Positions 1 through 17,111 are shown, counted from the stretch's first letter. The stretch: DNA of 27,176 nucleotides from Thermoplasmata archaeon (GCA_020356005.1 CP070629.1:829558-856733); one strand, 5' to 3'. Numbers and translations: made by a program. The notes: a model not told the origin generated them from the sequence alone.

Positions 1-3000
1 ACCCCGATATTGAACGATGACGAGGATAACGATTACGAACCCTCGTTATTATACACCGCTGACGAATTTCTGCTCGTATGGGTCTCAAACGAGTTCGATC
101 AATATACATTCATGGGAAGTACCGATGAGAACCTGATTACATATTCAGTTTCTTCTGACGGCTTGAACTGGAACGATCCTGAGAGTGTCCATCCGCGGTA
201 CTGCCAGGAATCCACACCTTATTTAAGCGTCGATTCCATCGGCAGAATTCTGCTTACATGGAGCTCGGACAGGATGGATTTCGAAGAGGCAGAGGATGAG
301 CGCGATCACGATAAAGATATCTGGTATTCTACTTACGCCGCCGGTGAATGGGCTGTGCCTTCGGCGCTCACATCGGATCCGGCCAACGATGAATCGCCCT
401 CAATGTTCCAGAAGGGGAACGGCGATTACTGGACTGTGTGGTCGCGGGATGACAGGATCTTTTATTCCACCACGGATGAGCTTCCGCCTCCGGTCAATGC
501 CTTCGGATCAGCAATTAATGTTCCCATCGATAGATGGCGAGAGGAATTCGACTATACATACGAGGACGAGATCTCAAACACATTCTGGATCTACAACTAC
601 GGTGAGCGCGACCTGACAGGTAAGATCACTGCTTCGCAGGGATTCACATTAAACAAATTTGAATTTGCTATTGCGCCCGGAGAAAACATATCGTTCACGG
701 TTACATTAAACGCCAAGGACGAAGGGCGGTACCTGGGTGTCGTGGAGATCCTATCCAATGACGAGATCGCACCCAGGATTTCCATCCCGCTATATGTGAA
801 GATCACATCGTCAGAATTCGAAGAGAGCGAGAAGGATATCGGAGAGGGCGTCGGACCTGAGGAGGAGGAAGCAGAGGAGGAGGGCGAAGAGGATTTTCAG
901 AGAGTGCTTATTTTACTTACCGCCCTGGTTATAATTCTGCTGTTAATATTCATAGTAATGAGAAGAGAGGAGAAGAAAGCGGCGGAGGAGAAGAAGAAGG
1001 AGGATGAGGAGGAAGAGGAAGAAAAGGAAGAGGAGGAGGGGGAGGAAAAGGAAGGTGAAGAGGGTGAAGAGGAAGGTGAGGGTGAAGAAGAGGAAGAAGG
1101 AGGAGAGGAAGAGGAAGGAGAAAGCAAGGGAGAAGAGGGATCGGAAGTGGAGGAGGATGCAGCAAGTGATGAAGATGTAAAGACGGAGGAAAAAGAACCC
1201 GAAGATAAAGGTGCCGCCAAAGCCAAACCCAAGCGTAAGAGAGCCGTGAAACCTTTAATGGTGTTCGGTGCGTTTTTCAGCATTATGATTCTTTTATTAT
1301 CAAATTGTTCAGGTGCGGCGAATATGATGGTGCTCGCTCAGGATTCGGATATACCCCAGAGCGAGATCCCCAAGATATCCGAAAACGACCCCGGCGAATT
1401 CTGGACATGGGTACCCTATTATGACCAGAGCGGTGAAGAATCCAATCTGGAGATGCATTCCGAGTATTATGACGATGAAGGTACTTATCCACCTGACTGG
1501 GTCGAGTACGGAAGCTCTCTCAGTTTAAGACAACTGGTGGAGATGCCTTTCCCGGTGGAAAAACTGCGGTTCTGGATGAGGCATGACGAGGGCAGCGGAC
1601 CTGTGGGAGTAGAGATAACAGAAAATGTTTCCAGCAAGGTTGCTGCGGGAACAGAATATTTCTGGGCGGATTATTCATCCAGTTCATATGACTGGTGCGA
1701 GGTCAATGTTTCCACTTCGAAAATCACCAATGTTCTCGGAGGGGGGTCATACTATATTCATCTTACACCCCCCATGGATATACTTACCGAAGGTGAAATG
1801 TACGGAGTAAACCGAATAGGTACTGTTAAACTTAATGATACTCCCATACCCCCCGCGCATATTGTATATAAAACCCTGTATGATGCAGAAGTGGATTTCG
1901 CACAGAGAGGTACCGATAAGTATCAGCACATATTCTGGACTTCAAAGATCGATGATACTGTTTTGATTGACGAATTCTTTATGGACTATGACTATTACGA
2001 CGATCTAAACCCGCAATATATGTCTGACTCCCTCTGGTATACCGATAACGATTTCAATATGAAAATGGAGTTGTATATCAAAGCCGAGATGTTCAACAGC
2101 GCTAATGTTTTTCAGCCTTCTTATCCGGGTTACGAGAATGCCGAAATAGCAGGAAAAATAAATATCGTCAATCCCTTCAGCGACCAGGAGAACTTTACTG
2201 TCAGAGTAGGGTTACTGGGTCCCGATGGAACAGAATATAACGTTTTGAATGAAGAACATAAAATCAAATACGGAACAAACCTACAGCTCGATTACTCTTA
2301 TTTCACAGAAGCCAAACTTCCAGCAGGCGATTATAATGTCCTGGCGGGCATTTATCTGACTGACATTTATGAAGGTGAATACCTGGTCATGGCGGATAAA
2401 TGGGGAGATACGGATTACGAGTTGGAAAAAACGAAATTTTCTATTATCAATACCACCCCGATCATGGATGTTACCCTTATCGATAAGCTCAAGAGCGATG
2501 TTGTTGACGGCAAGATCCCGGTGTATTACCTCAAATGCAGTGATGCGCCCGGCCATAAGCCTCCCCGGTCGATTCAATCGGAGATGGATAATATCCAGGA
2601 ACGGTTCGATTCACTCGAGAGTGTACTTGGCGTGGACTTTGAACATAAAGATATAACCAGCACTCGTGAATTCCTGGAATTGGTAGAATCGGACGTTAAA
2701 GATGCCATAGTGGTTAACTACCACAGCGATTTACTGCCCATACCATCAAGCTTTGCCCGCGGCGAGTATGTTGATTTGAACACGATCGTACGATACTATT
2801 TCGACGAAAATAACGGCACCACTGTTTACGACCGTTCAAAATATATCAATGACGCAGACTTCGTCGGCAATCCCGCCTGGACACAGGAGAAGTATCAGGG
2901 TGCATCTGCACTGTACTTTGATGGGTCGAACGATATGCTGGAAATAGATGACGATATTACATTGAAAACTCCCCGGTTCACCATCCAGTTCTGGCTTTAT

Positions 3001-6000
3001 TTGAATAAAGAATATACATCCGGTGTGCAGAGCATACTATCATATGCTGGTTCAAAAGGCGGATATGAGATCAACTTAAATCAAACATCTTCAAATGCAC
3101 CAAACCAGATCGAGTTCTCGATTTCACATAATTCCTCATGGCACCACATCTCCGGTATGTCGCTGGAAGTGAATAAATGGTACAGGATCACTGCGATTCT
3201 GAACGATACGGAAGCTTCACTCTATGTGGGGTGGGAGGAGACCAAGAAGAAGCGCAGGAGTGAGGTTACCATACAGGTGGATGAACTGCAGGGTAAAATC
3301 GAGCTCGGCGGGATTTCTTTCAGTGATACCTCCTTGACCATCGGCGGCTCGAAGTTGGATACAACCAGAAATATAGAGATGTATATTGATGATTTTATTC
3401 TGACCAATGATGTGCGGCTCCCGCAGGAATACACCGAGGGTCATCCCGAGGACGGTGTCAACTGGGTCAAACGAGTTGGTAAATGGATCGCCGACTCTGG
3501 CATCGTATTCGTGAACACAAGGTACAGTCCCTTCACCGCCGTTGGCAATACAGATAAAAACTGGCCGTACAACAGGATTTCATTGGGAGCCGAGGGCTTC
3601 GGAAATATTCTGGAAACACGCTCAGTGGACGCCACAATATACAAGGATACATGGCTGGAGAATATCAAAACCGACAAAACACCCGAAGCGGCAAATATTC
3701 AAACAATATTGAGCGCGTGGGGCATTCCCTTTCCGGATTCTTTTGAGAGCGCTCAAACCTATATGACTTTGGACTCCGAGCTTGAACCTTTCTGCATACC
3801 GCTTTATAAAACGGCTGATAATGAAATTACCCATGCAATGATATTCTATGGTAAGGGAGCCATAATGTATAACGGCCTGAATAACCCCGACGCCGCCCTC
3901 ATTGCCGGCACTGCGGGTTGGTATACAGCCAAGAATATCCAGCCGCTGTATTTCATCGACTGTTCTGATGCACCCAAATCCTCAAGCAGTAAAGATTACG
4001 TGACGGAGCTGAAGAGCTCGTTTGATAAATTACAGGCGGATACGGGTATTCAATTCTATTATATTACTATCTCCAGCACCGACCAATTCTATCAATTGAT
4101 CAACTCCAACGTCAGGGATATCATTGTGGTGAACACGCACGGAGAATACCTGCCAATGCCGGCAAATTACATCAGCGGTGCATGCGTGGACGATAAAACG
4201 AATGCACTCCTGGGATTCGAGGAGGGCAGTGATATCAGCGCCTTCGATATCTCTGGCAATTACAATGACGGATTGATCGTCGGCGCTACATGGAGCACCA
4301 ATGCCCATTACGGCGATTATGCACTTGATTTCGACGGCAACGATTTTGTCGTCCTGACGCGTACGCCCAAGCTGTCGCCGAAAACCTTTACTATTGAATG
4401 CTCCGTTTATCTGAAGCAGGATTATGATAACAAGTCTGCAGCAATTATCTCAAACGAATTCCATCGTGATTCAGAACCGGGTGAAGAATACACGCATACT
4501 TACGGATATTCTCTTTACATTAATTCCAATTATACTACATTAAACAGACTGGTATTTTCATTGGGTACAAAACTGCCTGAAGTGGAGCCTCTTTATTTCG
4601 ACAGTCTGGAAAAGGAGCGGTGGTACAGGCTGGCTGCTACTTACGACGGCAGGTATATGAAGCTTTATGTCAACTATGAGGAGGTAGCTTCCAAGGTAGC
4701 GTACGGCCTCCATCCCGAAACGCTCAATAATCTGCAGATAGGTAAATGTCCCAGATACGATTACCCGATAAATGCAATAATAGATGATGTGCGGATATCG
4801 GAGGGCGCGTTATCACCTGACCAGATGCTAATAGATGTTGTGTCTCATAAGTTATGTCTGGAGGACCTGAATAGGTGGATTTCAGAGAGTAGTATTATCT
4901 GGACCAATATTGAGGGCTATGATTTCCTTTACCTGGGTTTAAAAGATCAGGACTGGCCGGATGACAGAGTCAACATTGGCTATGACGGCCTCAGTGAGTT
5001 TTCAGAGATCGGACTGCCGCCGCTTGAACTCAATACCAGATCAAACACATGCACTCTGACAGACGTTGGCGATAAAATCGATACCGATCTGGCCAGTATG
5101 ATTTTGAAATCCAGCTTCCAGAGCACTGCAAATATACCTGCCTCATACGATATGTTCACTATTCCCATCTATTCGAATGACAACGCTGTTTCGCACGGGG
5201 TGATACCCATCGGTAAGGGTAAGTTCATCCATACCGGCACCTACGATGCAGATCTGGTTGCTTCAACTGCCGCATGGTTTTTCACGAAAGGTAATGTCCA
5301 GATGATTTTCCTGGTGGACATCCCCGCAACCGTTGGCGGTACCGACCCTCTGGTTGTGGAATCCCAGCACCCTTATCCCACCAGGTTCGGAACCTCCGAG
5401 AATCTTATTGATAACCCCGGTGCGGAATCCGGCAGCATGTCGGGCTGGAAAGTCCTATTACACGGAGGTAACGGCTGGAGGGTACAGGGCGGCAGCTACG
5501 ACGGCGAAAAGCACTTCAGGACATCTTTTAACTGGTGCAAGCGTTATCAGGAGATCGATTTACTGGCAGAGGGGTACACCACCGATGAATTGAATGCTAA
5601 GCCCACCATCTATGCAGAGGAATGGTTCCACGGGTCATGGCCGAACTACGGTGATTACTACTACCTGAAAGTGGAGCTCCGCGACGCTAACCATAAAGCC
5701 ATCTCAACCTATAATTCCGGAGTACAGCGTGCAACGAACAGCTGGCAGAAGTTATCTCATACCTTCTCAGAGTACGGAGCCGGTGTGCGCTATATCTACT
5801 GGGAGGACGGCGGTGACGATGCGGAATACTGGTGGGGATATTACGGTGTAATGATCGACGGTGCGTTTTTGACCATTGACACCGCCGAGCTGGATGATAC
5901 CTGGGTTTTTTACAAGCCCGATGTGAGCAGGATCAGGGTGCATTTCGAAAAATACGAGATAGGTTCCACCGGAGATTACATCAAGGTCCTGAATAAGAAC

Positions 6001-9000
6001 GATTGTGAGCTCGCCAGGTACTCCGGTTTCGATTCCTCAGGAATGTGGACACCGTGGTGCGAAGGCGATACTGTCAAGTTGAAAATGGTAACCGGTTCCG
6101 GCCGGCACTACTGGGGTTTCAAGGTAAATAAGATCGAATATCTGACCGACGGGGTCTCCCCCATTCATCCCTACGGTAAAGCCGAGCTGATAAATAAATT
6201 GACCAATCTTGAGAACACCATGGACACCATCTGCATATTCAATGAAATTACTTCAACCGCCGAATTTGAAAAATTGGTAGAAAGCCGTCTAGAATCGCCC
6301 ATGGTCATCAATTTGCACGGCGATGCGGTGCCCGTCCCTGATTCTTATTTAACCGGAGGTGCCAGCGCCACCATACCGCCGCTGGGCTATTCGCCGGGCG
6401 GTGTAAAAGGCGAATATTACGACAACGAGGGTTTCACGAACCTGAAGGAGACCCGTGTGGACAACGAAATAAATTTCTACTGGAAATACGGCAGGCCTGT
6501 GGGTTCCGTCCATGGTGATACATTCAGCGTTAGATGGACCGGAATGCTGAGAGTCGATTTCTCAGAGGAATATACCTTCCATGTCCAGACAGATGACGGC
6601 ACCAGGTTCTGGATCGACAAGAACATGGATGGTGATTTCGACGATGCAGAAGAACTTGTAATCGATACCTGGAAGCTCCAGGCACCCACCTGGCATCAAG
6701 GTAAAATAAAGCTTACTCCCGGGTTCTATAATATCAAGTATGAATATTACGAGCATTACGGCTATGCGGTGGCAAAGCTGTTCTGGAGCTCGAAAAACAT
6801 TAAAAAGTCGGCGGTACCCGGCGAGAACCTCTATTCAAATCTGGCAACGCCGGCGGGCTACACCTCCGGCGGTCTTGAGGGTGAATATTATGATAATGCC
6901 GATTTAAAATATTTGAAGACAAAAAAAGTTGATTCAACAATCAATTTTAACTGGGGTACGGAAAGCCCGGATGCGGCCGTGGACCCTGATACATTATCGA
7001 TCAGATGGACGGGCATGGTAAAAATCGACGAGACGGGTGAATATGAGTTCTCGGTTAACACCGATGACGGGTCGAGGCTGTGGGTGAACAATCAGCAGAT
7101 CATCAATTCATGGAAGGACCAGTCCGCGCCCACTGAGTATTCCGGTAAGATCTCCTTTACGAAACCCGGTTTTTACGATATCACCTACGAATACTTCAAG
7201 AATACCGGGAGCGCTACGGCACAGCTATACTGGAAAACTCCATCCATGACGCAGGATGGTGAGCAGAAGGTAATCATTCCCTCCGATCATTTATTCAACC
7301 GCGGCGGGATATTCAGATACGCACAGGAATGGCTGAACGAGCTGGGCGATTGGGTTGCGCAGAACGGTGTGGTATATGCCAACACCAAGGATTACCCGTT
7401 CCAGTACGCCATAATCGATAACCCGCCGCCCGACAGCGGCAATCTCTGGTTCATCGGCGAAGAGGGTTTTTCGGAGTTTTTATCACCGCGCTCAGAAAGT
7501 GTAACGCTTGCACGGTACGAAGAAGGGCTCGGGATGGGCAACCTGACCCCCAACGGAAGAGCGCTCCGTGATTACCTGCCTGCGCGTACATTACCGAATT
7601 ATGTGACCGATGTACCCTACCCGCTGCCCTCAGACTATGACTGTATTCCCATCTTCCGCGACAAGGACAACAGGGATATTACCCACGGTATTATTCCCTT
7701 CGGAAGGGGTGCGTACATCCACTGCGGCGGATTCTCGGTGGATGCCTTAACCGCCATGTGTTTCATGTATTCATCTAAAAGAGACGATATGCGGTTTATC
7801 GGCGAGGTATATTACAAAGGCGAAACCGTCTGGACACAGGTACAGGTTCGCAACGATTATCCAATGGAAATGACATATGATTTTGAGCTGGTAACCCATT
7901 TCCCGGAGGAGGGGCTGCGGTCCAGGCGGATGACGGATTCGGAGATCGTTACTCTGCAGCCCGGCGAGGAGAAGACCATATACCTATCGTGGACGCCCAT
8001 CCAGCCGGATAAGATCGGTAAGTACAGCCTGGTAGTCCAGGTAATCGATCTGGAACGGCACACACTGGTAGAGATCTGGGGTAACGATATAGAGAACGAG
8101 TCTATTTCCATTAGCGTGGAGGTGGGAGCTTATATTTCGCAGCTTAAGACCAGCGATTACCTGGGATATTTCGATACTGTTGAAGTTGAGGTTACCATAA
8201 CGAACGAGATGTATATAGATAATCTATTTATCGTCAGCGGTATTTTCCAGAACAAAATCAACAAACATGTTTACTGGACGGAGGAGGAGGAACTTCCGGA
8301 GTATGAAGCCGAGGGTGGTATGGATACTACAGTGACTGTTGTATGGCATCCCTCCCAGCATAACTATCCGAACCAGACTTTTGAGCTCGGGATCTACCAG
8401 GGTACCATATTCTTAGAGGATGTTGCCAGTGCTTACTGCATACCCGATAAAAGTTATAAGACAGGTGAGCCGAAATATTTCAGGGTGAAGAAGATCATAG
8501 ATCAGAGCTCCACGGAATTCCGGATCGTGGGCCAGCTGGAAATCAATTTCCCGAAGGATATCGGGACATGGTCCATCAGCTACCACGGCGAGCTGGGCCC
8601 GTACTTCCCAATCAACCCGCAGGTCCGTGATGTGGTGCGCGTGTTCGACCCCGAGTACGATATCTGGATACGCCGCGACAGCCGGCTGGAGCTGGAGCCA
8701 GAAAGAGAGCCAGGCGGCATGATAGGCTACTGGAAGTTTGATGAATCTGTATGGACCGTGGACGCCGGCCAGGTTACCGATTCGTCGGGCAACGGGCACC
8801 ACGGCACCGCTTATAACGGTGCAAATACGGTACAGTATTCAAGATTCGGTCGATCAGCTGCCTTCAACGGGCAGAATTATGTTGTGATACCGGCCCATGA
8901 TGACATCAATGTTGGTAATAACAATGCGAACTTCAGTGTGGAATTCTGGTTCTTTTTAAAGCAGGGTCCCATCCGTTATTGGCGCAACATAATGCACAAG

Positions 9001-11541
9001 GGTAGTACGAATTCCGAGCGAACATTTGCAATGTGGATGAAGCCATGGGATAATAAAATCCATGCCCGGATAAGCACCACACACAACGTGAACGAGGGAT
9101 TTGACAGCAAGGCATACCTCCAGTTGAACTCATGGACACATGTCGCTTATGTTAAAGACGGAAACACGCTCAGTCTATACCTGAACGGTAAACTTGATAC
9201 CAAGTACACATTGGTTGGTTCTGTTGTTAACAATTCGGGACCGCTGTACATAGGGAAGGACATGTGGTACAATGGCGTTAACAGCCACATCGATGAATTG
9301 TGTCTTTACAACCGCCCCATTTATGAAGATGAGATAAAGCTGCACTATAAGAGCGGTGTAATGGAAGCTTCGGACAGGAACGCTTTCAAGCTGGGTTATT
9401 ATTCGGATTCCGGAAATGACCTGTATGCTGTGGTGAATTTTGAAAGCCAGGATGACGGCAACAGCTACCAGAAGGTTTTAAAGCTGCCCGCTGACGGCAA
9501 CTATCTAGATGTGGAACATCTGTTTGCATATTACTGGCCCGAGGGTACAACTTTAAAGATCTCGCAGGAGCCTAATTTGCAGTTCTCCGGTACGGAATAC
9601 TTCAGTTATAACGGCCCGAGACCCACCACTTTGCCTCTGGAGACCACCGTTAACGGTGTGGATTGCGCGGTACTTTACAACAGAGGTGCGGGAGTCACTT
9701 ACGATGTGGTTTTAAACGATGCGAACTTCTACAAGATCTTCATTACGGCCCAAAACTGTCCCAAGTCCGAAGCCGGCGATATAAAGCTCAGGCTGCATCT
9801 GCACTACTGGACCGGCAACCCGGCACACAAAGATTCGTTCGGTAACGTTGGATGGAAGACCAACGACGAGTCACCGAAGGATTTTGTATGGAGCGAGCGA
9901 AATGAGGAATTTGATACCAAGGAGTTCAGGCTGATACTGTCACCTGCAGGTCATTATCACATAACAATAGAGAACCTGCACGATTATTATACAAAAGATT
10001 ATGACAAGAACGCGTATATATCCGAAGTAGCGATCCGCCCGACATATGCTCTTGATATGGAAAAGCAGAAAGTAGATGAGAGCCAGATGCTGGCAAGCGG
10101 AGAGGCGGGCACACGGAGCATAAGCACCAGCAGCCGTGTGGGCGAAGATGGACCCATCGGCAACCGCAACTGTGACCTCGGTGTTCGACCCAAGAAGGTG
10201 CCGGATGAAACCATGGACTATACGTATAACGAGGTCCCCATCCCGATGTTCGGCGCCAACTACGATATGGGCAGCCCGGGCATAGAAGCTGGCGGCAGCC
10301 TACCTGTAAAATTCGGTGACCATGTAGGATTGGAAATAGAATTCGGTTTAGAGATAGATCCTACTACGGGACTGCTTCAAAAGATCTCTATCGGTATCAC
10401 ACTGGGTATCGAGGGTGAGATAGGCGGGATAGTTAAAATCGCCGCCAAGATACAGGTCCAGATAGAATTCGATGATATACTTAACACCAGCAAACCCTTT
10501 ATTGAGAAATTCAAATGGTCTGTTACTGTTGAGATCGAGGTGGGTTTCGAGATAGGTAAATTGATCTGGAAAGCGCCCATAAGCTTCGAGGTGCCGAAAC
10601 CTGGAGGAAAAGAGGGTGAAGATGAATCTCTATTGGCATTGAAACTCTGCCTGTGGATAGAGCTCGGTTTCAAGATAAGTCTGCACAGCGGAGCGAACGC
10701 CGGTGACGTCCAGATAACAGCGGGAATCTACGGCGGCATTAAATTCGAGGTCAAGTTCGAGGTCAAGATCACTCCTGATATCTTGAAGGGATTAACGCAA
10801 AAGAGTACAGATATGAGAAAGGAGAACACCAAGGCGTTAACCGATCACGCCGACCAGTCCCAGAAGGCAGAGGAATTAGAGGAAAAGCGCGAGAACAAAA
10901 TCAAGGAAATGCAAAAAGACAATAAAGATAAACCGCGCGAAGAGATCGAGAAGTTAGTAGACGAATCGCCAATGGGAAAACAGTATGCCGAGGAGCAGAA
11001 AAAGAAAGAGGATTCGTTCGCGAACCTGATGAAAAGCAGTAAAAAGTTGAGCGAATGTAATAAGTTTAAGGATATATTCGAAAAGGTTTTCGGGAAGGGC
11101 TTCAAGGATTTCCCGACCTTCCTTGAGATAGAGTTCACCATAAATTTTGTTATCGGCCTCCGCCTGGGTGTAAGCACACAGGTAGCGCCGTTCTCGCCTA
11201 CCGGTCCATACTGGAAACTGCTGTTCTACACCGAGTTCTTCTTCGCGGCTGAAATATCCTTTAAAATAATTATCAATATCTGGATCATTAAACTGGAATT
11301 CCCCATAGGCTTCAAGTTCTGGATCGACAAGATCTTCTGGATGAACAAGGTCAATATAATCGGTGCATCAGAATGGGATGACGACGGCGTTATGGGTCAG
11401 TTCATGTTCAAATGCCGCGAAAATATAGATGATGAGACCAAGGACATGATGCTGCCCGCACCCATAGGAGACGATTCAGGCTTCGAAGTGGTGTTCCTGT
11501 GGTTTAAGTTCAAGTTCTCGTTTTGTTTGGTATCTACTTGA
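1..11541 (+). CDS. Giant membrane-anchored multi-lectin surface protein (5'-incomplete, at least 3,846 codons): BNR/Asp-box-like repeats, TM hairpin with poly-E/K loop, 3x LamG, FBA, 2x PA14, CARDB-like Ig folds, C-terminal amphipathic beta-strand module
   Basis: The frame is uninterrupted from nt 1 to the TGA at 11539-11541. Codons 1-9 (acc ccg ata) contain no stop, so the TTG at nt 10 in the ORF track is probably not the real start and the gene likely continues upstream. Recognisable motifs occur along the whole length: SSDGLNW Asp-box, GEYYDN...SVRWTG PA14 signatures, LamG 'IDDVRIS/IDELCLYNR' endings, and an FBA signature. All antisense ORFs inside it look like shadow ORFs. Confidence 0.9.
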   Translation, partial: TPILNDDEDNDYEPSLLYTADEFLLVWVSNEFDQYTFMGSTDENLITYSVSSDGLNWNDPESVHPRYCQESTPYLSVDSIGRILLTWSSDRMDFEEAEDERDHDKDIWYSTYAAGEWAVPSALTSDPANDESPSMFQKGNGDYWTVWSRDDRIFYSTTDELPPPVNAFGSAINVPIDRWREEFDYTYEDEISNTFWIYNYGERDLTGKITASQGFTLNKFEFAIAPGENISFTVTLNAKDEGRYLGVVEILSNDEIAPRISIPLYVKITSSEFEESEKDIGEGVGPEEEEAEEEGEEDFQRVLILLTALVIILLLIFIVMRREEKKAAEEKKKEDEEEEEEKEEEEGEEKEGEEGEEEGEGEEEEEGGEEEEGESKGEEGSEVEEDAASDEDVKTEEKEPEDKGAAKAKPKRKRAVKPLMVFGAFFSIMILLLSNCSGAANMMVLAQDSDIPQSEIPKISENDPGEFWTWVPYYDQSGEESNLEMHSEYYDDEGTYPPDWVEYGSSLSLRQLVEMPFPVEKLRFWMRHDEGSGPVGVEITENVSSKVAAGTEYFWADYSSSSYDWCEVNVSTSKITNVLGGGSYYIHLTPPMDILTEGEMYGVNRIGTVKLNDTPIPPAHIVYKTLYDAEVDFAQRGTDKYQHIFWTSKIDDTVLIDEFFMDYDYYDDLNPQYMSDSLWYTDNDFNMKMELYIKAEMFNSANVFQPSYPGYENAEIAGKINIVNPFSDQENFTVRVGLLGPDGTEYNVLNEEHKIKYGTNLQLDYSYFTEAKLPAGDYNVLAGIYLTDIYEGEYLVMADKWGDTDYELEKTKFSIINTTPIMDVTLIDKLKSDVVDGKIPVYYLKCSDAPGHKPPRSIQSEMDNIQERFDSLESVLGVDFEHKDITSTREFLELVESDVKDAIVVNYHSDLLPIPSSFARGEYVDLNTIVRYYFDENNGTTVYDRSKYINDADFVGNPAWTQEKYQGASALYFDGSNDMLEIDDDITLKTPRFTIQFWLYLNKEYTSGVQSILSYAGSKGGYEINLNQTSSNAPNQIEFSISHNSSWHHISGMSLEVNKWYRITAILNDTEASLYVGWEETKKKRRSEVTIQVDELQGKIELGGISFSDTSLTIGGSKLDTTRNIEMYIDDFILTNDVRLPQEYTEGHPEDGVNWVKRVGKWIADSGIVFVNTRYSPFTAVGNTDKNWPYNRISLGAEGFGNILETRSVDATIYKDTWLENIKTDKTPEAANIQTILSAWGIPFPDSFESAQTYMTLDSELEPFCIPLYKTADNEITHAMIFYGKGAIMYNGLNNPDAALIAGTAGWYTAKNIQPLYFIDCSDAPKSSSSKDYVTELKSSFDKLQADTGIQFYYITISSTDQFYQLINSNVRDIIVVNTHGEYLPMPANYISGACVDDKTNALLGFEEGSDISAFDISGNYNDGLIVGATWSTNAHYGDYALDFDGNDFVVLTRTPKLSPKTFTIECSVYLKQDYDNKSAAIISNEFHRDSEPGEEYTHTYGYSLYINSNYTTLNRLVFSLGTKLPEVEPLYFDSLEKERWYRLAATYDGRYMKLYVNYEEVASKVAYGLHPETLNNLQIGKCPRYDYPINAIIDDVRISEGALSPDQMLIDVVSHKLCLEDLNRWISESSIIWTNIEGYDFLYLGLKDQDWPDDRVNIGYDGLSEFSEIGLPPLELNTRSNTCTLTDVGDKIDTDLASMILKSSFQSTANIPASYDMFTIPIYSNDNAVSHGVIPIGKGKFIHTGTYDADLVASTAAWFFTKGNVQMIFLVDIPATVGGTDPLVVESQHPYPTRFGTSENLIDNPGAESGSMSGWKVLLHGGNGWRVQGGSYDGEKHFRTSFNWCKRYQEIDLLAEGYTTDELNAKPTIYAEEWFHGSWPNYGDYYYLKVELRDANHKAISTYNSGVQRATNSWQKLSHTFSEYGAGVRYIYWEDGGDDAEYWWGYYGVMIDGAFLTIDTAELDDTWVFYKPDVSRIRVHFEKYEIGSTGDYIKVLNKNDCELARYSGFDSSGMWTPWCEGDTVKLKMVTGSGRHYWGFKVNKIEYLTDGVSPIHPYGKAELINKLTNLENTMDTICIFNEITSTAEFEKLVESRLESPMVINLHGDAVPVPDSYLTGGASATIPPLGYSPGGVKGEYYDNEGFTNLKETRVDNEINFYWKYGRPVGSVHGDTFSVRWTGMLRVDFSEEYTFHVQTDDGTRFWIDKNMDGDFDDAEELVIDTWKLQAPTWHQGKIKLTPGFYNIKYEYYEHYGYAVAKLFWSSKNIKKSAVPGENLYSNLATPAGYTSGGLEGEYYDNADLKYLKTKKVDSTINFNWGTESPDAAVDPDTLSIRWTGMVKIDETGEYEFSVNTDDGSRLWVNNQQIINSWKDQSAPTEYSGKISFTKPGFYDITYEYFKNTGSATAQLYWKTPSMTQDGEQKVIIPSDHLFNRGGIFRYAQEWLNELGDWVAQNGVVYANTKDYPFQYAIIDNPPPDSGNLWFIGEEGFSEFLSPRSESVTLARYEEGLGMGNLTPNGRALRDYLPARTLPNYVTDVPYPLPSDYDCIPIFRDKDNRDITHGIIPFGRGAYIHCGGFSVDALTAMCFMYSSKRDDMRFIGEVYYKGETVWTQVQVRNDYPMEMTYDFELVTHFPEEGLRSRRMTDSEIVTLQPGEEKTIYLSWTPIQPDKIGKYSLVVQVIDLERHTLVEIWGNDIENESISISVEVGAYISQLKTSDYLGYFDTVEVEVTITNEMYIDNLFIVSGIFQNKINKHVYWTEEEELPEYEAEGGMDTTVTVVWHPSQHNYPNQTFELGIYQGTIFLEDVASAYCIPDKSYKTGEPKYFRVKKIIDQSSTEFRIVGQLEINFPKDIGTWSISYHGELGPYFPINPQVRDVVRVFDPEYDIWIRRDSRLELEPEREPGGMIGYWKFDESVWTVDAGQVTDSSGNGHHGTAYNGANTVQYSRFGRSAAFNGQNYVVIPAHDDINVGNNNANFSVEFWFFLKQGPIRYWRNIMHKGSTNSERTFAMWMKPWDNKIHARISTTHNVNEGFDSKAYLQLNSWTHVAYVKDGNTLSLYLNGKLDTKYTLVGSVVNNSGPLYIGKDMWYNGVNSHIDELCLYNRPIYEDEIKLHYKSGVMEASDRNAFKLGYYSDSGNDLYAVVNFESQDDGNSYQKVLKLPADGNYLDVEHLFAYYWPEGTTLKISQEPNLQFSGTEYFSYNGPRPTTLPLETTVNGVDCAVLYNRGAGVTYDVVLNDANFYKIFITAQNCPKSEAGDIKLRLHLHYWTGNPAHKDSFGNVGWKTNDESPKDFVWSERNEEFDTKEFRLILSPAGHYHITIENLHDYYTKDYDKNAYISEVAIRPTYALDMEKQKVDESQMLASGEAGTRSISTSSRVGEDGPIGNRNCDLGVRPKKVPDETMDYTYNEVPIPMFGANYDMGSPGIEAGGSLPVKFGDHVGLEIEFGLEIDPTTGLLQKISIGITLGIEGEIGGIVKIAAKIQVQIEFDDILNTSKPFIEKFKWSVTVEIEVGFEIGKLIWKAPISFEVPKPGGKEGEDESLLALKLCLWIELGFKISLHSGANAGDVQITAGIYGGIKFEVKFEVKITPDILKGLTQKSTDMRKENTKALTDHADQSQKAEELEEKRENKIKEMQKDNKDKPREEIEKLVDESPMGKQYAEEQKKKEDSFANLMKSSKKLSECNKFKDIFEKVFGKGFKDFPTFLEIEFTINFVIGLRLGVSTQVAPFSPTGPYWKLLFYTEFFFAAEISFKIIINIWIIKLEFPIGFKFWIDKIFWMNKVNIIGASEWDDDGVMGQFMFKCRENIDDETKDMMLPAPIGDDSGFEVVFLWFKFKFSFCLVST
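904..1302 (+). other. Internal transmembrane hairpin: TM1 (VLILLTALVIILLLIFIVM), ~95-aa poly-Glu/Lys loop, TM2 (MVFGAFFSIMILLLS) that resembles a signal peptide
   Basis: Two hydrophobic ~19-aa and ~16-aa stretches sit at nt 904-960 and 1258-1302. Both have basic residues on the loop side (RREEKK after TM1, KAKPKRKRAVKP before TM2). The loop is an almost pure purine (GAR) tract on the + strand. Confidence 0.75.
2791..3432 (+). other. LamG/concanavalin-A-like lectin domain 1 (Laminin_G_3-like)
   Basis: YYFDENNGTTVYDRS...ALYFDGSNDMLEI...FTIQFWLYL...WYRITAI...LYVG...MYIDDFILTN. This is the pattern typical of LamG_3 domains in prokaryotic surface proteins. Confidence 0.75.
4204..4827 (+). other. 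LamG/concanavalin-A-like lectin domain 2
   Basis: LLGFEEGSDISAFDISGNYNDGLIVGATW...ALDFDGNDFVVL...FTIECSVYL...WYRLAATYDGRYMKLYVN...IIDDVRISEGALSPDQM. Confidence 0.8.
5401..5877 (+). other. FBA domain (F-box-associated / Fbs1-FBXO2 type sugar-binding domain)
   Basis: NLIDNPGAESGSMSGWKVLLHGGNGWRVQ...FRTSFNWCKRYQEIDLLAEGY...YYLKVELRD...WQKLSHTFSEYGAGVRYIYWEDGGDDAEYWWGYYGVMIDGA. This aligns block for block with my recollection of the FBXO2 sugar-binding domain: NLLRNPCGEEDLEGW...HGGDGWRVEE...FASSFEWCRKAQVIDLQAEGY...YELTVKLL...WMEISHTFTDYGPGVRFVRFEHGGQDSVYWKGWFGARVT. Confidence 0.8.
6397..6795 (+). other. PA14 domain 1
   Basis: GGVKGEYYDNEGFTNLKETRVDNEINFYW...DTFSVRWTGMLRVDFSEEYTFHVQTDDGTRFWID...GFYNIKYEYYEHYGYAVAKLFWSS. 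This is the canonical PA14 signature. Confidence 0.9.
6868..7245 (+). other. PA14 domain 2
   Basis: GGLEGEYYDNADLKYLKTKKVDSTINFNWG...DTLSIRWTGMVKIDETGEYEFSVNTDDGSRLWVNNQQII...GFYDITYEYFKNTGSATAQLYWKTPS. Confidence 0.9.
8725..9360 (+). other. LamG/concanavalin-A-like lectin domain 3
   Basis: GYWKFDES...VTDSSGNGHHGTAYNGA...AAFNGQNYVVIP...FSVEFWFFL...WTHVAYVKDGNTLSLYLNGKL...LYIGKD...IDELCLYNRPIYEDEIKLHY. Confidence 0.85.
10234..11538 (+). other. C-terminal amphipathic beta-strand module (two blocks) split by a ~105-aa K/E-rich coiled-coil-like insert (nt ~10801-11118)
   Basis: There are runs of strict hydrophobic/polar alternation: GLEIEFGLEID, ISIGITLGIEGEIGG, IQVQIEFD, WSVTVEIEVGFEIG, LCLWIELGFKISLH, IKFEVKFEVKIT, LEIEFTINFVIGLRLGV, EISFKIIINIWIIKLEF, FEVVFLWFKFKFSF. 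I do not recognise a family signature. Confidence 0.6.
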
Positions 11542-11778: not shown

Positions 11779-12029
11779 TGGAATTTATTAAAATCGACCA
11801 AACGGGTAAAATCTACCTGCCTAAAGTCATACGAAACAAAATAGATACCCGCAGTAAATATTTGGTAATTACCCTGCCGGACGGCGATGTGATTCTTCAT
11901 AAAATTAAAAGGTCAAAGAATCCTATACGTGATTTTCAGAAAGCATGGTCCACAGGAAAGGATATTGCAGAGATAAGAAAGGATATTCTGGATGAAGCCG
12001 TTAAACTTGCTGGAGAACGCGGTGATTGA
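11778..12029 (+). CDS. AbrB/SpoVT-fold antitoxin (VapB-like)
   Basis: The N-terminus (M)EFIKIDQTGKIYLPKVIRNKID...LVITLPDGDVILHKI is the swapped-hairpin AbrB/MazE/SpoVT motif. The gene is 83 aa, lies directly upstream of a PIN gene and overlaps it. The start is a TTG and is uncertain. Confidence 0.75.
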   Translation: MEFIKIDQTGKIYLPKVIRNKIDTRSKYLVITLPDGDVILHKIKRSKNPIRDFQKAWSTGKDIAEIRKDILDEAVKLAGERGD

Positions 12030-12408
12030 GTTGTATGCCGATACCGATTTTTTTCTGGCATTAATAAAAAAAGATGATTGGTTGAAGAAACGGGCGGAAA
12101 AACTTTATAAAAAACATCAAAATGAATTGTGGACATCTACATTGACTATTAAAGAATTAATGCTTTTAGCATATCGTGATAATAAGGATGTTACAGATAT
12201 TATCGAAAAAGCTTCCGCTTTAATGCCGGTTAAGGAGGTAGATATCGGTGTGGAAGGGCATATTGCCGCCAGCTTTTTAATTAAAAAATATAAAATGACG
12301 CCCTTCGATGCATTACATGCAGTTATTTGTGATAATGATTCAATTATCAGTTCAGATAAAAAATATGATTTGATAGGGCTCAATAGAATTACGTTAGAAA
12401 AAGAATAG
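12022..12408 (+). CDS. PIN-domain ribonuclease toxin (VapC-like)
   Basis: It carries the N-terminal acidic motif YADTDFFLAL and the later FDALHAV and ISSDKKYD motifs typical of PIN domains. I prefer the GTG at 12022: GGAGAA lies 4-5 nt upstream, it overlaps the antitoxin stop by 8 nt, and the first conserved Asp falls at residue 7-9. The ORF-track ATG at 11992 is the alternative. Confidence 0.75.
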   Translation: MIELYADTDFFLALIKKDDWLKKRAEKLYKKHQNELWTSTLTIKELMLLAYRDNKDVTDIIEKASALMPVKEVDIGVEGHIAASFLIKKYKMTPFDALHAVICDNDSIISSDKKYDLIGLNRITLEKE

Positions 12409-12532
12409 ATAAAACTGAGATTGGGAATCCGAACCAATTTTTCTCCAAATTTATAAAAACAACAAAGAATTTAATAGTCTATAATGCAATAATGTGGGTA
12501 ATCTTCCGATTATATTCATGGAGCTCTTTGTG

Positions 12533-14665
12533 ATGAAAATCAAGATCAACCGGATATTGTTATTGATTATTGCATTCATATTGATCTTCGCCGCGGTTGG
12601 CAGCGCTGTTATTTACAGATTCTATTTGCAGCCTGAGGAGGAGGAGGCGGAGACGCTCAAAATCGGTGTGCTGCTGCCCCTGAGCGGCCCCGAAGCTGTT
12701 AATTCATATGAGGTGCTGGATTGGGCTGCGGGCAATATCAATTCGCAGGGCGGAATAAAAGAATATCAAATCGAGCTGGTGTACAAAGACACCTATAACC
12801 ATGACCTGGCATTGCTGGCAGATGAGTTCATACAGGACGAATCCATTAAAATCGTGATCGGGCCGGGCACAAGTTCAGGTGTGTTCGATATTGCGCCTAT
12901 GTTCATTGCCAATAAAAAAATTCTTATCAGTGCATTTTCCACTGCAGCCGATGTATTCAACGCCTTCGGCGGTAAGAACTACATATGGCGCACCTGCCAA
13001 TCCGATGTTGCACAGATACGAACCATTCTGCATATACTCGACTCCAGAAATGTACAGAAAATATCGTTGATGTACGAGAACTCGGTTTACGGGAAGTCCT
13101 TCTATGATTGGACCGGTTTTTTTTCGCTGGAACTGGGAATAGAATTATTGAATCTGGTGGAATTCGAGTACGGGCAGAGCGATTTTTCCGAGGATGTGAA
13201 AACTGCTCTGGAGGGTGATCCCGACTATATCGTTTGTGTCGCATTCTCATCGGATGTAGTGGAGATCAAGAAGGAGCTGGATTTGACCGGCAGCTCAGCC
13301 AAGCTCTTCCTCACGGACGCAGGCGAGACGCCGTATTTGATCAGCGACCTAGGACAAGCAGCCGAGGGGCTGGAAGGTACCACCCCCTCTGCAGATCCCG
13401 CTGCGGGTTTCGAGGCAGTTTATCAAACCGAGCTTGGAAACCCGCCCAACAATATAGCAGCCACAACCTACGATGCGTTCCTGCTCGCACTATATACCCA
13501 CGCCAGACAACTTCATACGGGCGGCTCGGAGGGATTAGATGAATCCATAAAAAAAGTTGTTAGTGGTAACGATACGAAAGTGGGCTGGAGGAAAGAGGAT
13601 GTGGGAGCTGCCGTAGAAATGATTTTGAAAGGAGAGCTCCCGGACATCTCAGGCGTTTCGGGGCCATTGGAATTCGATTCCGAATTCGGCTGCGATCCCC
13701 TTGAAACCTTCTTCAATCACTGGCAGGTATCGGGCGGCGAGTTTCAAAGCCAAGATTCGATCAGTTCGGCTGCATCCTTACATGCAGGAGCAGTTAAATC
13801 AGGTGCTTCCGCATGCAGAACTTCGGGCAGCGCTGAAATTGGTAAAATAGAGGACACAACCGGCACAACGAACGGTCAACTCGCTGCCAGGAAGGATTCC
13901 TGGGCCGTAATTGTCTCTACCAGCACAGACTGGGACAATTACCGTCACCAAGCAGACGCTCTTGCTGTTTACAATATGTTGAAAACCAACGGTATGAGCG
14001 ATGATAAGATTATATTGTTAACGGTGGACGACATACCTGACCATGAGCGTAACAAAAAGCAAGGAGACATACACCACGAGATTAGTGGTACAAATCTCCG
14101 GTTGGATGCAGAGATCGATTATTCTGGTAATGATGTTACCTCCAAGATCTTCCGAAATGTATTAACAGGTAAAAAAACCGCCAGGACACCCACCGTGTTG
14201 GAATCCGATGAGAACAGCAATGTGTTTGTGTATATAGTAGACCACGGCGGCCAGGGCACCATACCCTTTGATAACGGCGGAACACTAAAGGCAGATACAT
14301 TGAAGAATTCTATAGTCGGTATGGACAATGACAATATGTTCCGGCAGATGTTTGTTATTATCGAGACATGTTTTTCTGAGAGCATGACCGCCGATATCGA
14401 GACCCCCGAAGTTGTTTTTTTGACCTCCGCAGCAGAGGACGAGCCCTCATTTGCTGCGAATTACGATTCTGAGATCGGGGCATGGCTGGCGGACGACTGC
14501 ACCTACCAGGTGGTTTCCACACTATCGGAGAATAAAGATATTTCCATAATGGAACTGTATGATGATACATATCCCAAGATCACCGGGTCGCACGTAAGAT
14601 TAAAAAACTATAACAGCTTCAGTAATGTTGAGAGCACGCCGGTAAGCGATTTCATCATGCCGTAA
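12533..14665 (+). CDS. Membrane-anchored fusion protein: type-I periplasmic binding protein (LivK/ANF-receptor-like) domain + C13 legumain-family cysteine peptidase domain
   Basis: The N-terminus MKIKINRILLLIIAFILIFAAVGSAVIY is a signal anchor. LKIGVLLPLSGPEAV...GGI...IELVYKDT...KIVIGPGTSS is the PBP1/Peripla_BP_6 pattern. The C-terminal half matches legumain block by block, including the His and Cys of the catalytic dyad: WAVIVSTSTDWDNYRHQADALAVY...DDI...DYSGNDVT..F.NVLTG...VFVYIVDHGG...MFVIIETCFSESM...SHV. The start at 12533 has GGAG 8 nt upstream. The ORF track begins at the GTG at 12494. Confidence 0.85.
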   Translation: MKIKINRILLLIIAFILIFAAVGSAVIYRFYLQPEEEEAETLKIGVLLPLSGPEAVNSYEVLDWAAGNINSQGGIKEYQIELVYKDTYNHDLALLADEFIQDESIKIVIGPGTSSGVFDIAPMFIANKKILISAFSTAADVFNAFGGKNYIWRTCQSDVAQIRTILHILDSRNVQKISLMYENSVYGKSFYDWTGFFSLELGIELLNLVEFEYGQSDFSEDVKTALEGDPDYIVCVAFSSDVVEIKKELDLTGSSAKLFLTDAGETPYLISDLGQAAEGLEGTTPSADPAAGFEAVYQTELGNPPNNIAATTYDAFLLALYTHARQLHTGGSEGLDESIKKVVSGNDTKVGWRKEDVGAAVEMILKGELPDISGVSGPLEFDSEFGCDPLETFFNHWQVSGGEFQSQDSISSAASLHAGAVKSGASACRTSGSAEIGKIEDTTGTTNGQLAARKDSWAVIVSTSTDWDNYRHQADALAVYNMLKTNGMSDDKIILLTVDDIPDHERNKKQGDIHHEISGTNLRLDAEIDYSGNDVTSKIFRNVLTGKKTARTPTVLESDENSNVFVYIVDHGGQGTIPFDNGGTLKADTLKNSIVGMDNDNMFRQMFVIIETCFSESMTADIETPEVVFLTSAAEDEPSFAANYDSEIGAWLADDCTYQVVSTLSENKDISIMELYDDTYPKITGSHVRLKNYNSFSNVESTPVSDFIMP

Positions 14666-16284: not shown

Positions 16285-16290
16285 ACTTAA

Positions 16291-16626: not shown

Positions 16627-16645
16627 ACTAGTTCCTCCTGATCGG

Positions 16646-17071: not shown

Positions 17072-17111
17072 GTGTATTATCCATCCCGGATCTTTGATTA
17101 AGATATATAAT

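What the first reader, a model, noticed from the sequence alone, without database searches (positions are those of the whole stretch)
2509..7790. Three tandem alpha/beta scaffold units, each interrupted by lectin insertions (nested-domain architecture)
A ~200-aa module recurs three times with the same ordered motifs. (i) beta1: IPVYYLKCSDAP / LYFIDCSDAP / MIFLVDIPA. (ii) ITSTREFLELVESDVKDAIVVNYHSDLLPIP / ISSTDQFYQLINSNVRDIIVVNTHGEYLPMP / ITSTAEFEKLVESRLESPMVINLHGDAVPVP. (iii) after an insertion: WIADSGIVFVNTRYSPF / WISESSIIWTNIEGYDF / WVAQNGVVYANTKDYPF. (iv) ITHAMIFYGKGAIMYNG / VSHGVIPIGKGKFIHTG / ITHGIIPFGRGAYIHCG. Between (ii) and (iii) unit 1 carries LamG-1, unit 2 carries LamG-2 and unit 3 carries PA14 x2. 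Unit 3 also carries the CUB-like/FBA cassette between beta1 and helix 1. The G(K/R)G..(I/M)(H/Y) ending resembles ThuA/GATase1-like flavodoxin folds, but this is a weak inference from memory. A repeated host domain that displays different lectins at one loop looks like a modular display scaffold. Both the duplication and the swapping of inserts can be read directly from the sequence.
Basis: partly seen in the sequence, partly recalled or inferred. Interest (0 to 1): 0.7.

Follow-up and report, generated by a model that had tools for sequence, protein, structure and literature searches.

The report
Lectin domains nested in repeated scaffold
A giant archaeal surface protein carries three back-to-back copies of a previously uncatalogued alpha/beta domain, each split at the same loop by inserted sugar-binding-type modules, and relatives show that this loop takes different inserts.

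Summary
Unit 1 and unit 2 align over their whole length (E 7e-44). Unit 3 aligns to both as two colinear halves (E 2e-8 to 3e-12).

An exhaustive profile search found 119 representative relatives. In 86 of them the ~235-aa domain is uninterrupted. In 13 proteins, including this one, it is broken at one position, HMM position ~81 in the beta3-to-alpha3 loop. The inserts there are 202-461 aa: Laminin_G_3, PA14 x2, PPC plus an unknown module, or an unknown beta-rich module.

Unit 3 with its inserts excised folds as one compact domain (pLDDT 89, pTM 0.89). Its best structural matches are weak (TM 0.38-0.45) but consistently class I glutamine-amidotransferase-like. The Cys-His-Glu triad is absent. 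No Pfam, NCBIfam or PDB sequence match covers the scaffold.

The host is an archaeon, probably Thermoplasmatota. The protein has two hydrophobic segments, and the units most likely lie outside the cell.

The most likely function is a rigid scaffold presenting several glycan-binding modules for adhesion. A ligand-binding or enzymatic role for the near-invariant N-x-H-G-E-x-x-P-x-P motif next to the insertion site is not excluded.

I rate this a new variant of a known kind (nested lectin insertion) on an undescribed domain family.

The parts
1..11541 (+). Giant ORF of at least 3,846 aa. The frame is open from base 1, so the N-terminus is cut off by the window edge.
   Evidence: Homologues P0004-P0006 align their residues ~109-463 to aa 3-274 here.
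901..960 (+). Hydrophobic segment 1 (aa ~301-320), followed by an E/K-rich acidic low-complexity stretch.
   Evidence: Kyte-Doolittle scan; translation.
1252..1308 (+). Hydrophobic segment 2 (aa ~418-436), preceded by KAKPKRKR. It reads as a second membrane pass or an internal signal-like segment, and the scaffold units lie after it.
   Evidence: translation. The topology is inferred.
2512..2775 (+). Unit 1, N-half of the scaffold (beta1-alpha1-beta2-alpha2-beta3 and the N-x-H-S-D-x-x-P-x-P motif), aa 838-925.
   Evidence: HMM positions 6-87, E 6e-17.
2776..3420 (+). Insert in unit 1: Laminin_G_3 module (Pfam match aa 974-1076).
   Evidence: E 3.8e-12.
3421..3939 (+). Unit 1, C-half of the scaffold, aa 1141-1313.
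   Evidence: HMM positions 75-236, E 1e-30.
3940..4179 (+). Unit 2, N-half of the scaffold, aa 1314-1393. It abuts unit 1 with no linker.
   Evidence: HMM positions 4-81, E 5e-21.
4180..4857 (+). Insert in unit 2: Laminin_G_3 module (Pfam match aa 1445-1608).
   Evidence: E 1e-17.
4858..5295 (+). Unit 2, C-half of the scaffold, aa 1620-1765.
   Evidence: HMM positions 86-236, E 1e-27.
5296..5346 (+). Unit 3, strand beta1 and its loop (VQMIFLVDIPATVGGTD), aa 1766-1782.
   Evidence: Best of 303 candidate 17-mers when spliced to the rest of unit 3: +9.3 bits against a mean of +2.3 (sd 1.4). Modelled as strand 2-7 with block pLDDT 94.
5347..6177 (+). Insert A in unit 3 (beta1-to-alpha1 loop): FBA sugar-binding-type domain (aa 1800-1958, nt 5398-5874) plus an unassigned ~100-aa beta-rich module (aa 1959-2059).
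   Evidence: FBA E 1.7e-30 / 4.8e-32. No Pfam hit for aa 1956-2060. FBA is absent from orthologue P0001.
6178..6357 (+). Unit 3, alpha1-beta2-alpha2-beta3 and the N-L-H-G-D-A-V-P-V-P motif, aa 2060-2119.
   Evidence: HMM positions 24-80, E 6e-13.
6358..7293 (+). Insert B in unit 3 (beta3-to-alpha3 loop): two PA14 domains (aa 2134-2273 and 2291-2418).
   Evidence: E 9e-21 and 4e-29.
7294..7794 (+). Unit 3, C-half of the scaffold, aa 2432-2598.
   Evidence: HMM positions 78-236, E 3e-32.
8866..9339 (+). Third Laminin_G_3 domain (aa 2956-3113). It is free-standing, not nested in a scaffold unit.
   Evidence: the best-scoring Laminin_G_3 stretch of the protein.

Best explanation
Window nt ~2512-7794 encodes three directly abutting copies of a ~235-aa alpha/beta domain. 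This domain belongs to an uncurated, mostly archaeal family of mostly secreted or membrane-anchored proteins.

The domain has a flavodoxin-like alpha/beta/alpha sandwich fold. It is closest to the class I glutamine-amidotransferase-like fold but lacks the Cys-His-Glu triad.

In each copy the loop between strand beta3 and helix alpha3 has taken up an autonomous beta-sandwich module. That loop directly follows the family's near-invariant N-x-H-G-E-x-x-P-x-P motif. The modules are Laminin_G_3 in units 1 and 2 and a PA14 pair in unit 3. Unit 3 has a second nested cassette (FBA plus an unassigned module) in the beta1-to-alpha1 loop.

Units 1 and 2 arose by duplication of a unit that was already interrupted. 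Unit 3 carries a different insert at the same point.

The region is part of a protein of at least 3,846 aa from a Thermoplasmatota-type archaeon. The protein has two hydrophobic segments upstream of the units.

Inferred function: the three scaffolds form a rigid platform outside the cell. It presents five recognised carbohydrate-binding-type modules inside the units (two Laminin_G_3, two PA14, one FBA), with a third Laminin_G_3 downstream, for multivalent binding to glycans. Targets could be the organism's own or neighbouring cell surfaces, or polysaccharide particles. The conserved scaffold motif next to the insertion point probably shapes the insert-bearing loop or contributes to a shared binding surface.

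Shown: the repeats, the insert identities, the common insertion point, the existence of uninterrupted homologues, and the single-domain prediction. Inferred: extracellular location, glycan binding and adhesion.
For: - Repeat significance.
- Insert identities.
- An exhaustive hmmsearch over 1.84 billion representatives found 119 relatives. After one iteration of the profile there are 91 uninterrupted full-length domain instances in 86 proteins and 17 split units in 13 proteins. Sixteen of the 17 break at HMM positions 77-90 (N-half end); P0112's N-half runs to position 107. Inserts are 202-461 aa.
- Inserts at that point in relatives: Laminin_G_3 (P0001 units 1 and 2, P0004-7, P0010, P0012), PA14 x2 (P0001 unit 3), PPC plus an unknown module (P0105), and modules with no above-threshold Pfam match (P0013, P0016, P0083, P0044, P0112).
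- AlphaFold2 of unit 3 with inserts excised, using a 68-sequence alignment: pLDDT 89.2, pTM 0.89. Both splice junctions fall in loops after a strand and before a helix.
- Foldseek against the PDB: the best hits are GATase1 domains (TrpG 1i7q_B, SpuA, GatD, CTP synthase) and the Op5Man5 and GH164 mannosidases. In the viral library, a named 'Type 1 glutamine amidotransferase', a CTP synthase and an FGARAT protein are among the weak hits (ranks 3, 28, 39; ranks 1-2 are an uncharacterized protein and an autotransporter-domain protein).
- Family conservation: N 97%, H 97%, P 99%, G 94-100%. All three units keep the N, H and both P residues.
- 76 of 119 relatives have an N-terminal hydrophobic segment and 50 have a C-terminal one.
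- Archaeal origin: an RNase P RNA in the window; the closest relatives are named Thermoplasmata and Thermoplasmatota archaeon.
- Orthologue P0001 (34-37% identity) keeps the order LamG, LamG, PA14 x2 but lacks FBA.
Against: - No full unit with its insert could be modelled. The single-sequence attempt on unit 1 failed (pLDDT 36.7).
- A spliced query with an alignment of uninterrupted homologues is biased toward the family fold. It shows compatibility, not proof.
- Structural matches are weak (TM below 0.5, rmsd 7-10 A), so the fold assignment is tentative.
- No ligand, binding residue or localisation was tested.
- LamG, PA14 and FBA are 'lectin-type' only by family. Many LamG_3 domains are not known to bind sugar.
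- The near-invariant N/H/E residues could mean the scaffold has its own activity rather than being passive.
Confidence: 0.85

Rival explanations
1. The scaffold is a cryptic enzyme, for example a hydrolase or transferase acting on surface glycans or peptides. The nested lectin modules shape or target its active site, as PA14 does in GH3 beta-glucosidases.
For: - Near-invariant polar residues N62, H64 and E66 sit at the C-terminal end of beta3. This is where GATase1-like enzymes build their active site. The site is directly adjacent to the insertion point.
- There is a precedent: PA14 inserted in a loop of the GH3 (alpha/beta)6 sandwich contributes Phe-508 to the active site (PMC5104943).
Against: - The nucleophile-elbow position is G-Y-P-F in the family, and D, G or Y in the three units.
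- The C-terminal His is only 62% conserved, and the printed sequences of the giant-protein relatives P0004, P0006 and P0010 lack it at that position.
- Unit 1 is degenerate at several conserved positions.
- No sequence match to any enzyme family in Pfam, NCBIfam or the PDB, even at E <= 10 for Pfam and the PDB and E <= 1 for NCBIfam.
Confidence: 0.12
2. The scaffold is a degenerate clan CD (caspase, legumain or gingipain-like) pseudo-peptidase. 'IVVNxHG' would be the hydrophobic strand plus His-Gly, and the catalytic Cys has been lost.
For: - The motif resembles one: a hydrophobic strand followed by H-G.
- Two neighbouring genes carry Peptidase_C13 domains.
- MALT1 and caspase-4 appear in the Foldseek list (ranks 46-48).
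Against: - The caspase-type hits are much weaker than the GATase1-type hits (E ~0.05 and TM 0.24-0.25, against E ~1e-3 and TM 0.38-0.45).
- There is no Cys at the expected position anywhere in the family.
- Profile-profile comparison with the neighbouring C13 domains gives nothing (probability below 2%).
Confidence: 0.02
3. There is no nesting. The N-halves and C-halves are separate small domains strung between lectin domains, or the similarity is due to chance or composition.
For: None beyond the lack of a full-unit model.
Against: - In 86 relatives the two halves are contiguous, and a single HMM alignment spans the junction.
- The spliced unit is predicted as one domain with pTM 0.89.
- BLAST E-values go down to 7e-44.
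Confidence: 0.01

Closest known systems
[quoted passage not shown]
   Same: An autonomous beta-sandwich carbohydrate-binding-type module is inserted into one surface loop of an alpha/beta sandwich host domain. The same loop is used in different proteins. The insert sits next to the host's functional face.
   Different: - The host here is a different, uncurated domain with no known catalytic activity.
- It is repeated three times in tandem.
- The loop accepts at least four different kinds of insert, not only PA14.
- One unit is interrupted at two loops.
Class I glutamine-amidotransferase-like fold, including the non-catalytic accessory (GH42-type) domain of the Op5Man5 and GH164 mannosidases (7bob, 6t5o) and the enzymes TrpG, SpuA, GatD and CTP synthase
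   Same: These are the best structural matches. The secondary-structure order is the same, beta-alpha-beta-alpha-beta-[loop]-alpha-beta followed by C-terminal antiparallel strands. The conserved residues lie at the C-terminal ends of beta3 and beta4.
   Different: - TM is only 0.38-0.45 and sequence identity 8-13%.
- There is no Cys nucleophile and no His-Glu pair.
- There is no Pfam match to GATase, ThuA or Glyco_hydro_42M.
- The location appears to be extracellular and archaeal.
Giant multi-lectin surface adhesins of bacteria and archaea (beads-on-a-string LamG, PA14 or Ig arrays). This comparison rests on general knowledge.
   Same: A very large membrane-anchored protein rich in LamG, PA14 and Ig-like modules, with a probable adhesion role.
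   Different: Here the lectin modules are not strung in series. They are nested inside a repeated globular host domain, which should fix their relative geometry.

Membership tests
Class I glutamine amidotransferase (GATase1) enzymes | Three-layer alpha/beta/alpha fold with the GATase1 strand order | tested here: inconclusive
   The top Foldseek PDB hits are GATase1 domains, but they are weak: E 7e-4 to 1e-2, TM 0.38-0.45, rmsd 7-10 A. The viral library gives the same picture.
Class I glutamine amidotransferase (GATase1) enzymes | Nucleophile Cys in the elbow after beta4 (G-x-C-x-G) | tested here: not met
   The family consensus at that position is G-Y-P-F (G 94%, Y 86%). The units have D-Y-P-F, G-Y-D-F and Y-S-P-F.
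Class I glutamine amidotransferase (GATase1) enzymes | His-Glu pair on a C-terminal strand | tested here: not met
   Only one His (G-x-G-x-Y-V-H) is present, conserved in 62% of members. It is Tyr in unit 1, and no conserved Glu follows it.
ThuA-like / Glyco_hydro_42M non-catalytic GATase1-like domains | Sequence match to PF06283 or PF08532 | tested here: not met
   No such hit at E <= 10 for the three spliced units or for 68 family members.
ThuA-like / Glyco_hydro_42M non-catalytic GATase1-like domains | Structural match to a solved member | tested here: inconclusive
   The mannosidase chains Op5Man5 (7bob) and GH164 (6t5o) rank 1 to 8, with TMq 0.38-0.42. No ThuA structure is in the top 50.
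Clan CD cysteine peptidases (caspase, legumain, gingipain) | His-Gly after a hydrophobic strand plus a catalytic Cys after the next strand | tested here: not met
   H-G is present, but there is no Cys in the family. Caspase and MALT1 hits reach only E ~0.05 and TM ~0.25. hhalign against the neighbouring C13 domains gives probability below 2%.
Nested (domain-in-domain) architecture | The host domain is contiguous in homologues that lack the insert | tested here: met
   91 uninterrupted instances in 86 representative proteins.
Nested (domain-in-domain) architecture | The insert is an autonomous, independently recognised domain | tested here: met
   Laminin_G_3, PA14 and FBA all score above the Pfam gathering thresholds.
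Nested (domain-in-domain) architecture | The host halves fold together as one domain | tested here: met
   Spliced unit 3: pLDDT 89.2, pTM 0.89. Caveat: this is a prediction on a spliced sequence. No full unit with its insert was modelled.
Laminin_G_3 / PA14 / FBA (the inserts) | Pfam score above the gathering cut-off | tested here: met
   Laminin_G_3 scores 47 and 65 bits (cut-off 27.6). PA14 scores 74.6 and 101.7 bits (cut-off 24). FBA scores 106.6 bits (cut-off 32.4).
Laminin_G_3 / PA14 / FBA (the inserts) | Actual carbohydrate binding | not testable with these tools
   This needs glycan arrays or binding assays.

The most novel reading that the evidence does not exclude
The ~235-aa scaffold is a new archaeal cell-surface domain family whose near-invariant N-x-H-G-E...G-Y-P-F site is itself a ligand-binding or catalytic pocket. 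On this reading the beta3-to-alpha3 loop is an evolutionary 'socket': interchangeable lectin modules plug in and, together with that pocket, form composite glycan-recognition or glycan-processing sites. The three abutting copies might also pack as a pseudo-trimer, echoing the trimerisation role of the GATase1-like domain in GH42-type glycosidases. That would give a fixed three-armed lectin array.
Probability: 0.15. Interest if true: 0.7.

Novelty: new variant of a known kind. Interest (0 to 1): 0.55.

Why it matters
It defines a domain family absent from the copies of Pfam, NCBIfam and PDB sequences searched here. I found 119 representative clusters, and every member that carries a name in the sources checked is called 'hypothetical protein'. 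The family appears to be a common building block of archaeal surface proteins.

It also gives a clean natural example of one loop that has repeatedly accepted different autonomous modules. That is useful for studying how nested domains evolve, and it points to a permissive insertion site for engineered display.

For archaeal biology, it marks a class of giant Thermoplasmatota surface proteins that probably mediate glycan-based adhesion. One of their modules is FBA, a sugar-binding domain best known from eukaryotic F-box proteins.

Tried and rejected
- AlphaFold2 of the whole of unit 1 from a single sequence gave pLDDT 36.7 and was unusable. It cost one of the two structure jobs.
- The word-indexed homologue search with the three spliced units found nothing. 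The exhaustive search was needed.
- A second word-indexed search with the family profile returned only 24 proteins, all unnamed or 'hypothetical'.
- A scan of GTDB representative genomes with the spliced-unit patterns found 15 pattern matches, none confirmed. The source genome and its close relatives are therefore not in that collection. The 68-sequence alignment was too divergent to derive search patterns from.
- The clan CD pseudo-peptidase idea was raised because of the H-G motif and the neighbouring Peptidase_C13 genes. I rejected it on the hhalign results, the Foldseek ranking and the absence of a conserved Cys.
- Sequence searches of the scaffold against Pfam (E <= 10), NCBIfam (E <= 1) and the PDB (E <= 10) gave nothing meaningful.
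- The 'CUB-like' label for aa 1959-2059 got no Pfam support.
- The gene neighbourhoods of three relatives showed no shared partner genes.
- Literature searches found no description of this family.


Full report
**The sequence.** The finding lies inside one very long open frame, window 1-11541 on the + strand. It encodes at least 3,846 aa. The frame is open from base 1, so the N-terminus lies outside the window. Pfam finds Laminin_G_3 three times, PA14 twice and FBA once in the protein.

**Repeats.** I cut the region into three units: aa 830-1313, 1314-1765 and 1766-2600.
- Unit 1 against unit 2 gives one BLASTP alignment over the whole length, LamG included: 495 columns, 26% identity, E 7.4e-44.
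- Unit 3 aligns to units 1 and 2 only in two colinear pieces. One is the segment around ITSTxEF...NxHG...PxP (E 1.8e-8 and 6e-7). The other is the ~145-aa C-terminal part (E 3.3e-12 and 4.3e-11).

This is what nested insertion predicts. Units 1 and 2 share host and insert. Unit 3 shares only the host.

The inserts were checked one by one:
- Laminin_G_3 at aa 974-1076 (E 4e-12) and aa 1445-1608 (E 1e-17).
- PA14 at aa 2134-2273 (E 9e-21) and aa 2291-2418 (E 4e-29).

FBA lies at aa 1800-1958 (E 2e-30).

**The scaffold is a real domain family that is normally uninterrupted.** With the inserts excised, the three units align at 32-34% identity. They have no Pfam, NCBIfam or PDB sequence match. A word-indexed search found nothing. 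An exhaustive hmmsearch over 1.84 billion representative proteins found 119 relatives.

After one round of profile refinement:
- 86 relatives hold 91 full-length copies of a ~235-aa domain in one uninterrupted stretch. Six of these proteins have two abutting copies.
- 13 proteins, including this one, hold 17 split copies. Sixteen of the 17 break at HMM positions 77-90 (N-half end); P0112's N-half runs to position 107. The gaps are 202-461 aa.

The inserts at that point in relatives are:
- Laminin_G_3 in P0001 units 1 and 2, P0004-7, P0010 and P0012.
- PA14 x2 in P0001 unit 3.
- PPC plus an unknown module in P0105.
- Modules with no above-threshold Pfam match in P0013, P0016, P0083, P0044 and P0112.

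The orthologue P0001 (34-37% identity) has the same three-unit order: LamG, LamG, PA14 x2. It lacks exactly the FBA domain. The closer fragment P0002 (66% identity, 'Thermoplasmata archaeon') keeps FBA.

**Strand beta1 of unit 3.** The family profile picks up unit 3 only from helix 1 onward. I spliced each of 303 candidate 17-residue windows from aa 1740-2058 onto the rest of unit 3. The window at aa 1766/1767 (VQMIFLVDIPATVGGTD) gave the largest score gain: +9.3 bits against a mean of +2.3 (sd 1.4). It also matches the family's beta1 consensus (VYxIxIPxV) better than the beta1 strands of units 1 and 2 do. The margin over the next unrelated window (+6.9 bits) is modest.

**Structure.** A single-sequence prediction of the whole of unit 1 was useless (pLDDT 36.7). 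I then predicted unit 3 with both inserts excised (240 aa) using a 68-sequence family alignment. The result was one compact domain, with pLDDT 89.2, pTM 0.89 and no block below 79.

The order of elements in the model is:
- beta1 (residues 2-7), alpha1 (18-32)
- beta2 (36-41), alpha2 (44-52)
- beta3 (59-62), a short strand (67-69)
- alpha3 (79-97), beta4 (100-103)
- further strands, including a C-terminal antiparallel set (191-217)
- a final helix

Both splice junctions (17|18 and 77|78) fall in loops that leave the C-terminal end of a strand. In a flavodoxin-like sheet, the ends of beta1, beta3 and beta4 are neighbours on one edge. The two insertion sites and the conserved motifs should therefore lie on the same face. 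This last point is inferred from the fold, because I could not access the model coordinates.

Caveat: a spliced query with an alignment of uninterrupted homologues is biased toward the family fold.

**Fold assignment.** Foldseek against the PDB gives only weak matches: best E 7e-4, TM 0.38-0.45, rmsd 7-10 A. They are consistent, though. They include anthranilate synthase TrpG, SpuA, GatD, the CTP synthase glutaminase domain, and the Op5Man5 and GH164 mannosidase chains. In the viral library, a named 'Type 1 glutamine amidotransferase', a CTP synthase and an FGARAT protein appear among equally weak hits. Caspase and MALT1 hits are much weaker (E ~0.05, TM ~0.25).

ThuA itself is not among the top hits. 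No ThuA, GH42M or GATase Pfam model matches any of 68 members, even at E <= 10.

**Conserved residues.** Over 100 family sequences:
- N 97%, H 97%, G 91%, E 77%, and two P at 99% and 88%, in N-x-H-G-E-x-x-P-x-P at the end of beta3.
- G 94%, Y 86%, P 89%, F 88% after beta4. This is the position of the GATase nucleophile elbow, and there is no Cys.
- G131 98%, G212 100%.
- The His in G-x-G-x-Y-V-H is only 62% conserved.

All three units keep the N, the H and both P residues. Unit 1 is degenerate elsewhere (G65S, G106Y, Y107S, H216Y). The GATase triad is therefore absent. The strongly conserved motif lies only ~5-8 residues before the insertion point.

**Host and location.** The window carries an archaeal RNase P RNA at 24484-24783. 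The nearest relatives are named Thermoplasmata or Thermoplasmatota archaeon. Short family members come from Thermoprotei. Every source name is 'hypothetical protein'.

The giant protein has two hydrophobic segments, at aa ~301-320 and ~418-436. They flank an E/K-rich stretch whose ends are positively charged. This fits a two-pass topology with the scaffold units outside the cell, but that is an inference. Of 119 relatives, 76 have an N-terminal hydrophobic segment and 50 have one after the last domain. This fits secreted or anchored surface proteins. Three gene neighbourhoods showed no shared partner genes.

**Interpretation.**
- Architecture (confidence ~0.9): three tandem host domains, each with nested beta-sandwich modules at a family-wide insertion hot spot. 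Unit 3 is interrupted at two loops.
- Function (confidence ~0.5): a rigid extracellular platform presenting several glycan-binding-type modules for adhesion.
- Main rival: the scaffold has its own binding or catalytic site at N-x-H-G-E, which the inserts complement. PA14 does this in GH3 beta-glucosidases, where it is inserted in a loop of the (alpha/beta)6 sandwich and supplies an active-site aromatic residue (PMC5104943). Against this rival are the missing nucleophile, the poorly conserved C-terminal His and the degeneracy of unit 1.
- Rejected: the clan CD pseudo-peptidase idea and the 'no nesting' reading.

**Novelty.** Nested lectin insertion is a known phenomenon, and the fold class is probably a known one. 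Three things appear undescribed: the host domain family itself, the use of one loop for at least four kinds of insert, and the triple tandem arrangement with a doubly interrupted unit. I rate it a new variant of a known kind, of moderate interest.

Noticed in passing
window 5398-5874 (aa 1800-1958): There is a strong match (E 2e-30) to the FBA domain, the sugar-binding region best known from eukaryotic F-box proteins, inside an archaeal surface protein. It is present in the 66%-identical relative P0002. It is exactly deleted in the 34-37% identical orthologue P0001.
   Followed up: partly
window 24484-24783 (+): Archaeal RNase P RNA (RF00373, 207 bits, full length). This shows that the window comes from an archaeon.
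   Followed up: yes
window 12494-14665 (+) and 21686-24055 (-): The first ORF fuses a periplasmic-binding-protein domain (Peripla_BP_6) to a Peptidase_C13 (legumain) domain (E 2.5e-53). The second is a large ORF with a weak C13 match plus bacterial Ig-like domains. Neither is related to the scaffold by profile comparison.
   Followed up: partly
window 14845-19289 (-): A partner-switching-type signalling cluster in an archaeon. It comprises a dCache-HAMP protein, a STAS protein, an HATPase_c_2 (anti-sigma-type) kinase, and a dCache-HAMP-SpoIIE phosphatase.
   Followed up: no
window ~880-1310 (aa ~295-436): Two hydrophobic segments flank a ~95-aa stretch made almost entirely of Glu, Lys and Gly. 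No stop codon separates the N-terminal BNR/Ig-like part from the rest, so the protein may cross the membrane twice.
   Followed up: partly
window ~10140-11541 (aa ~3380-3846): The C-terminal region has Gly/Ile/Glu-rich beta-like repeats, a Lys/Glu-rich probable coiled coil and a hydrophobic tail. It has no Pfam match. It is conserved in the giant homologues P0005 and P0007 (BLAST E 2e-11 and 5e-9).
   Followed up: no
relatives P0008, P0009, P0011, P0015, P0021, P0034: Six family members carry two uninterrupted scaffold copies that abut directly with no linker. Tandem packing therefore seems to be a property of the family, not only of this protein.
   Followed up: partly
window 11992-12408 (+): A small PIN-domain ORF lies immediately downstream of the giant gene.
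   Followed up: no
relatives P0028, P0042: A minority of family members have no N-terminal hydrophobic segment and start directly with the scaffold. One family member (which one was not reported) carries a DpnII-MboI restriction-endonuclease-like domain. The family is therefore not exclusively extracellular.
   Followed up: no
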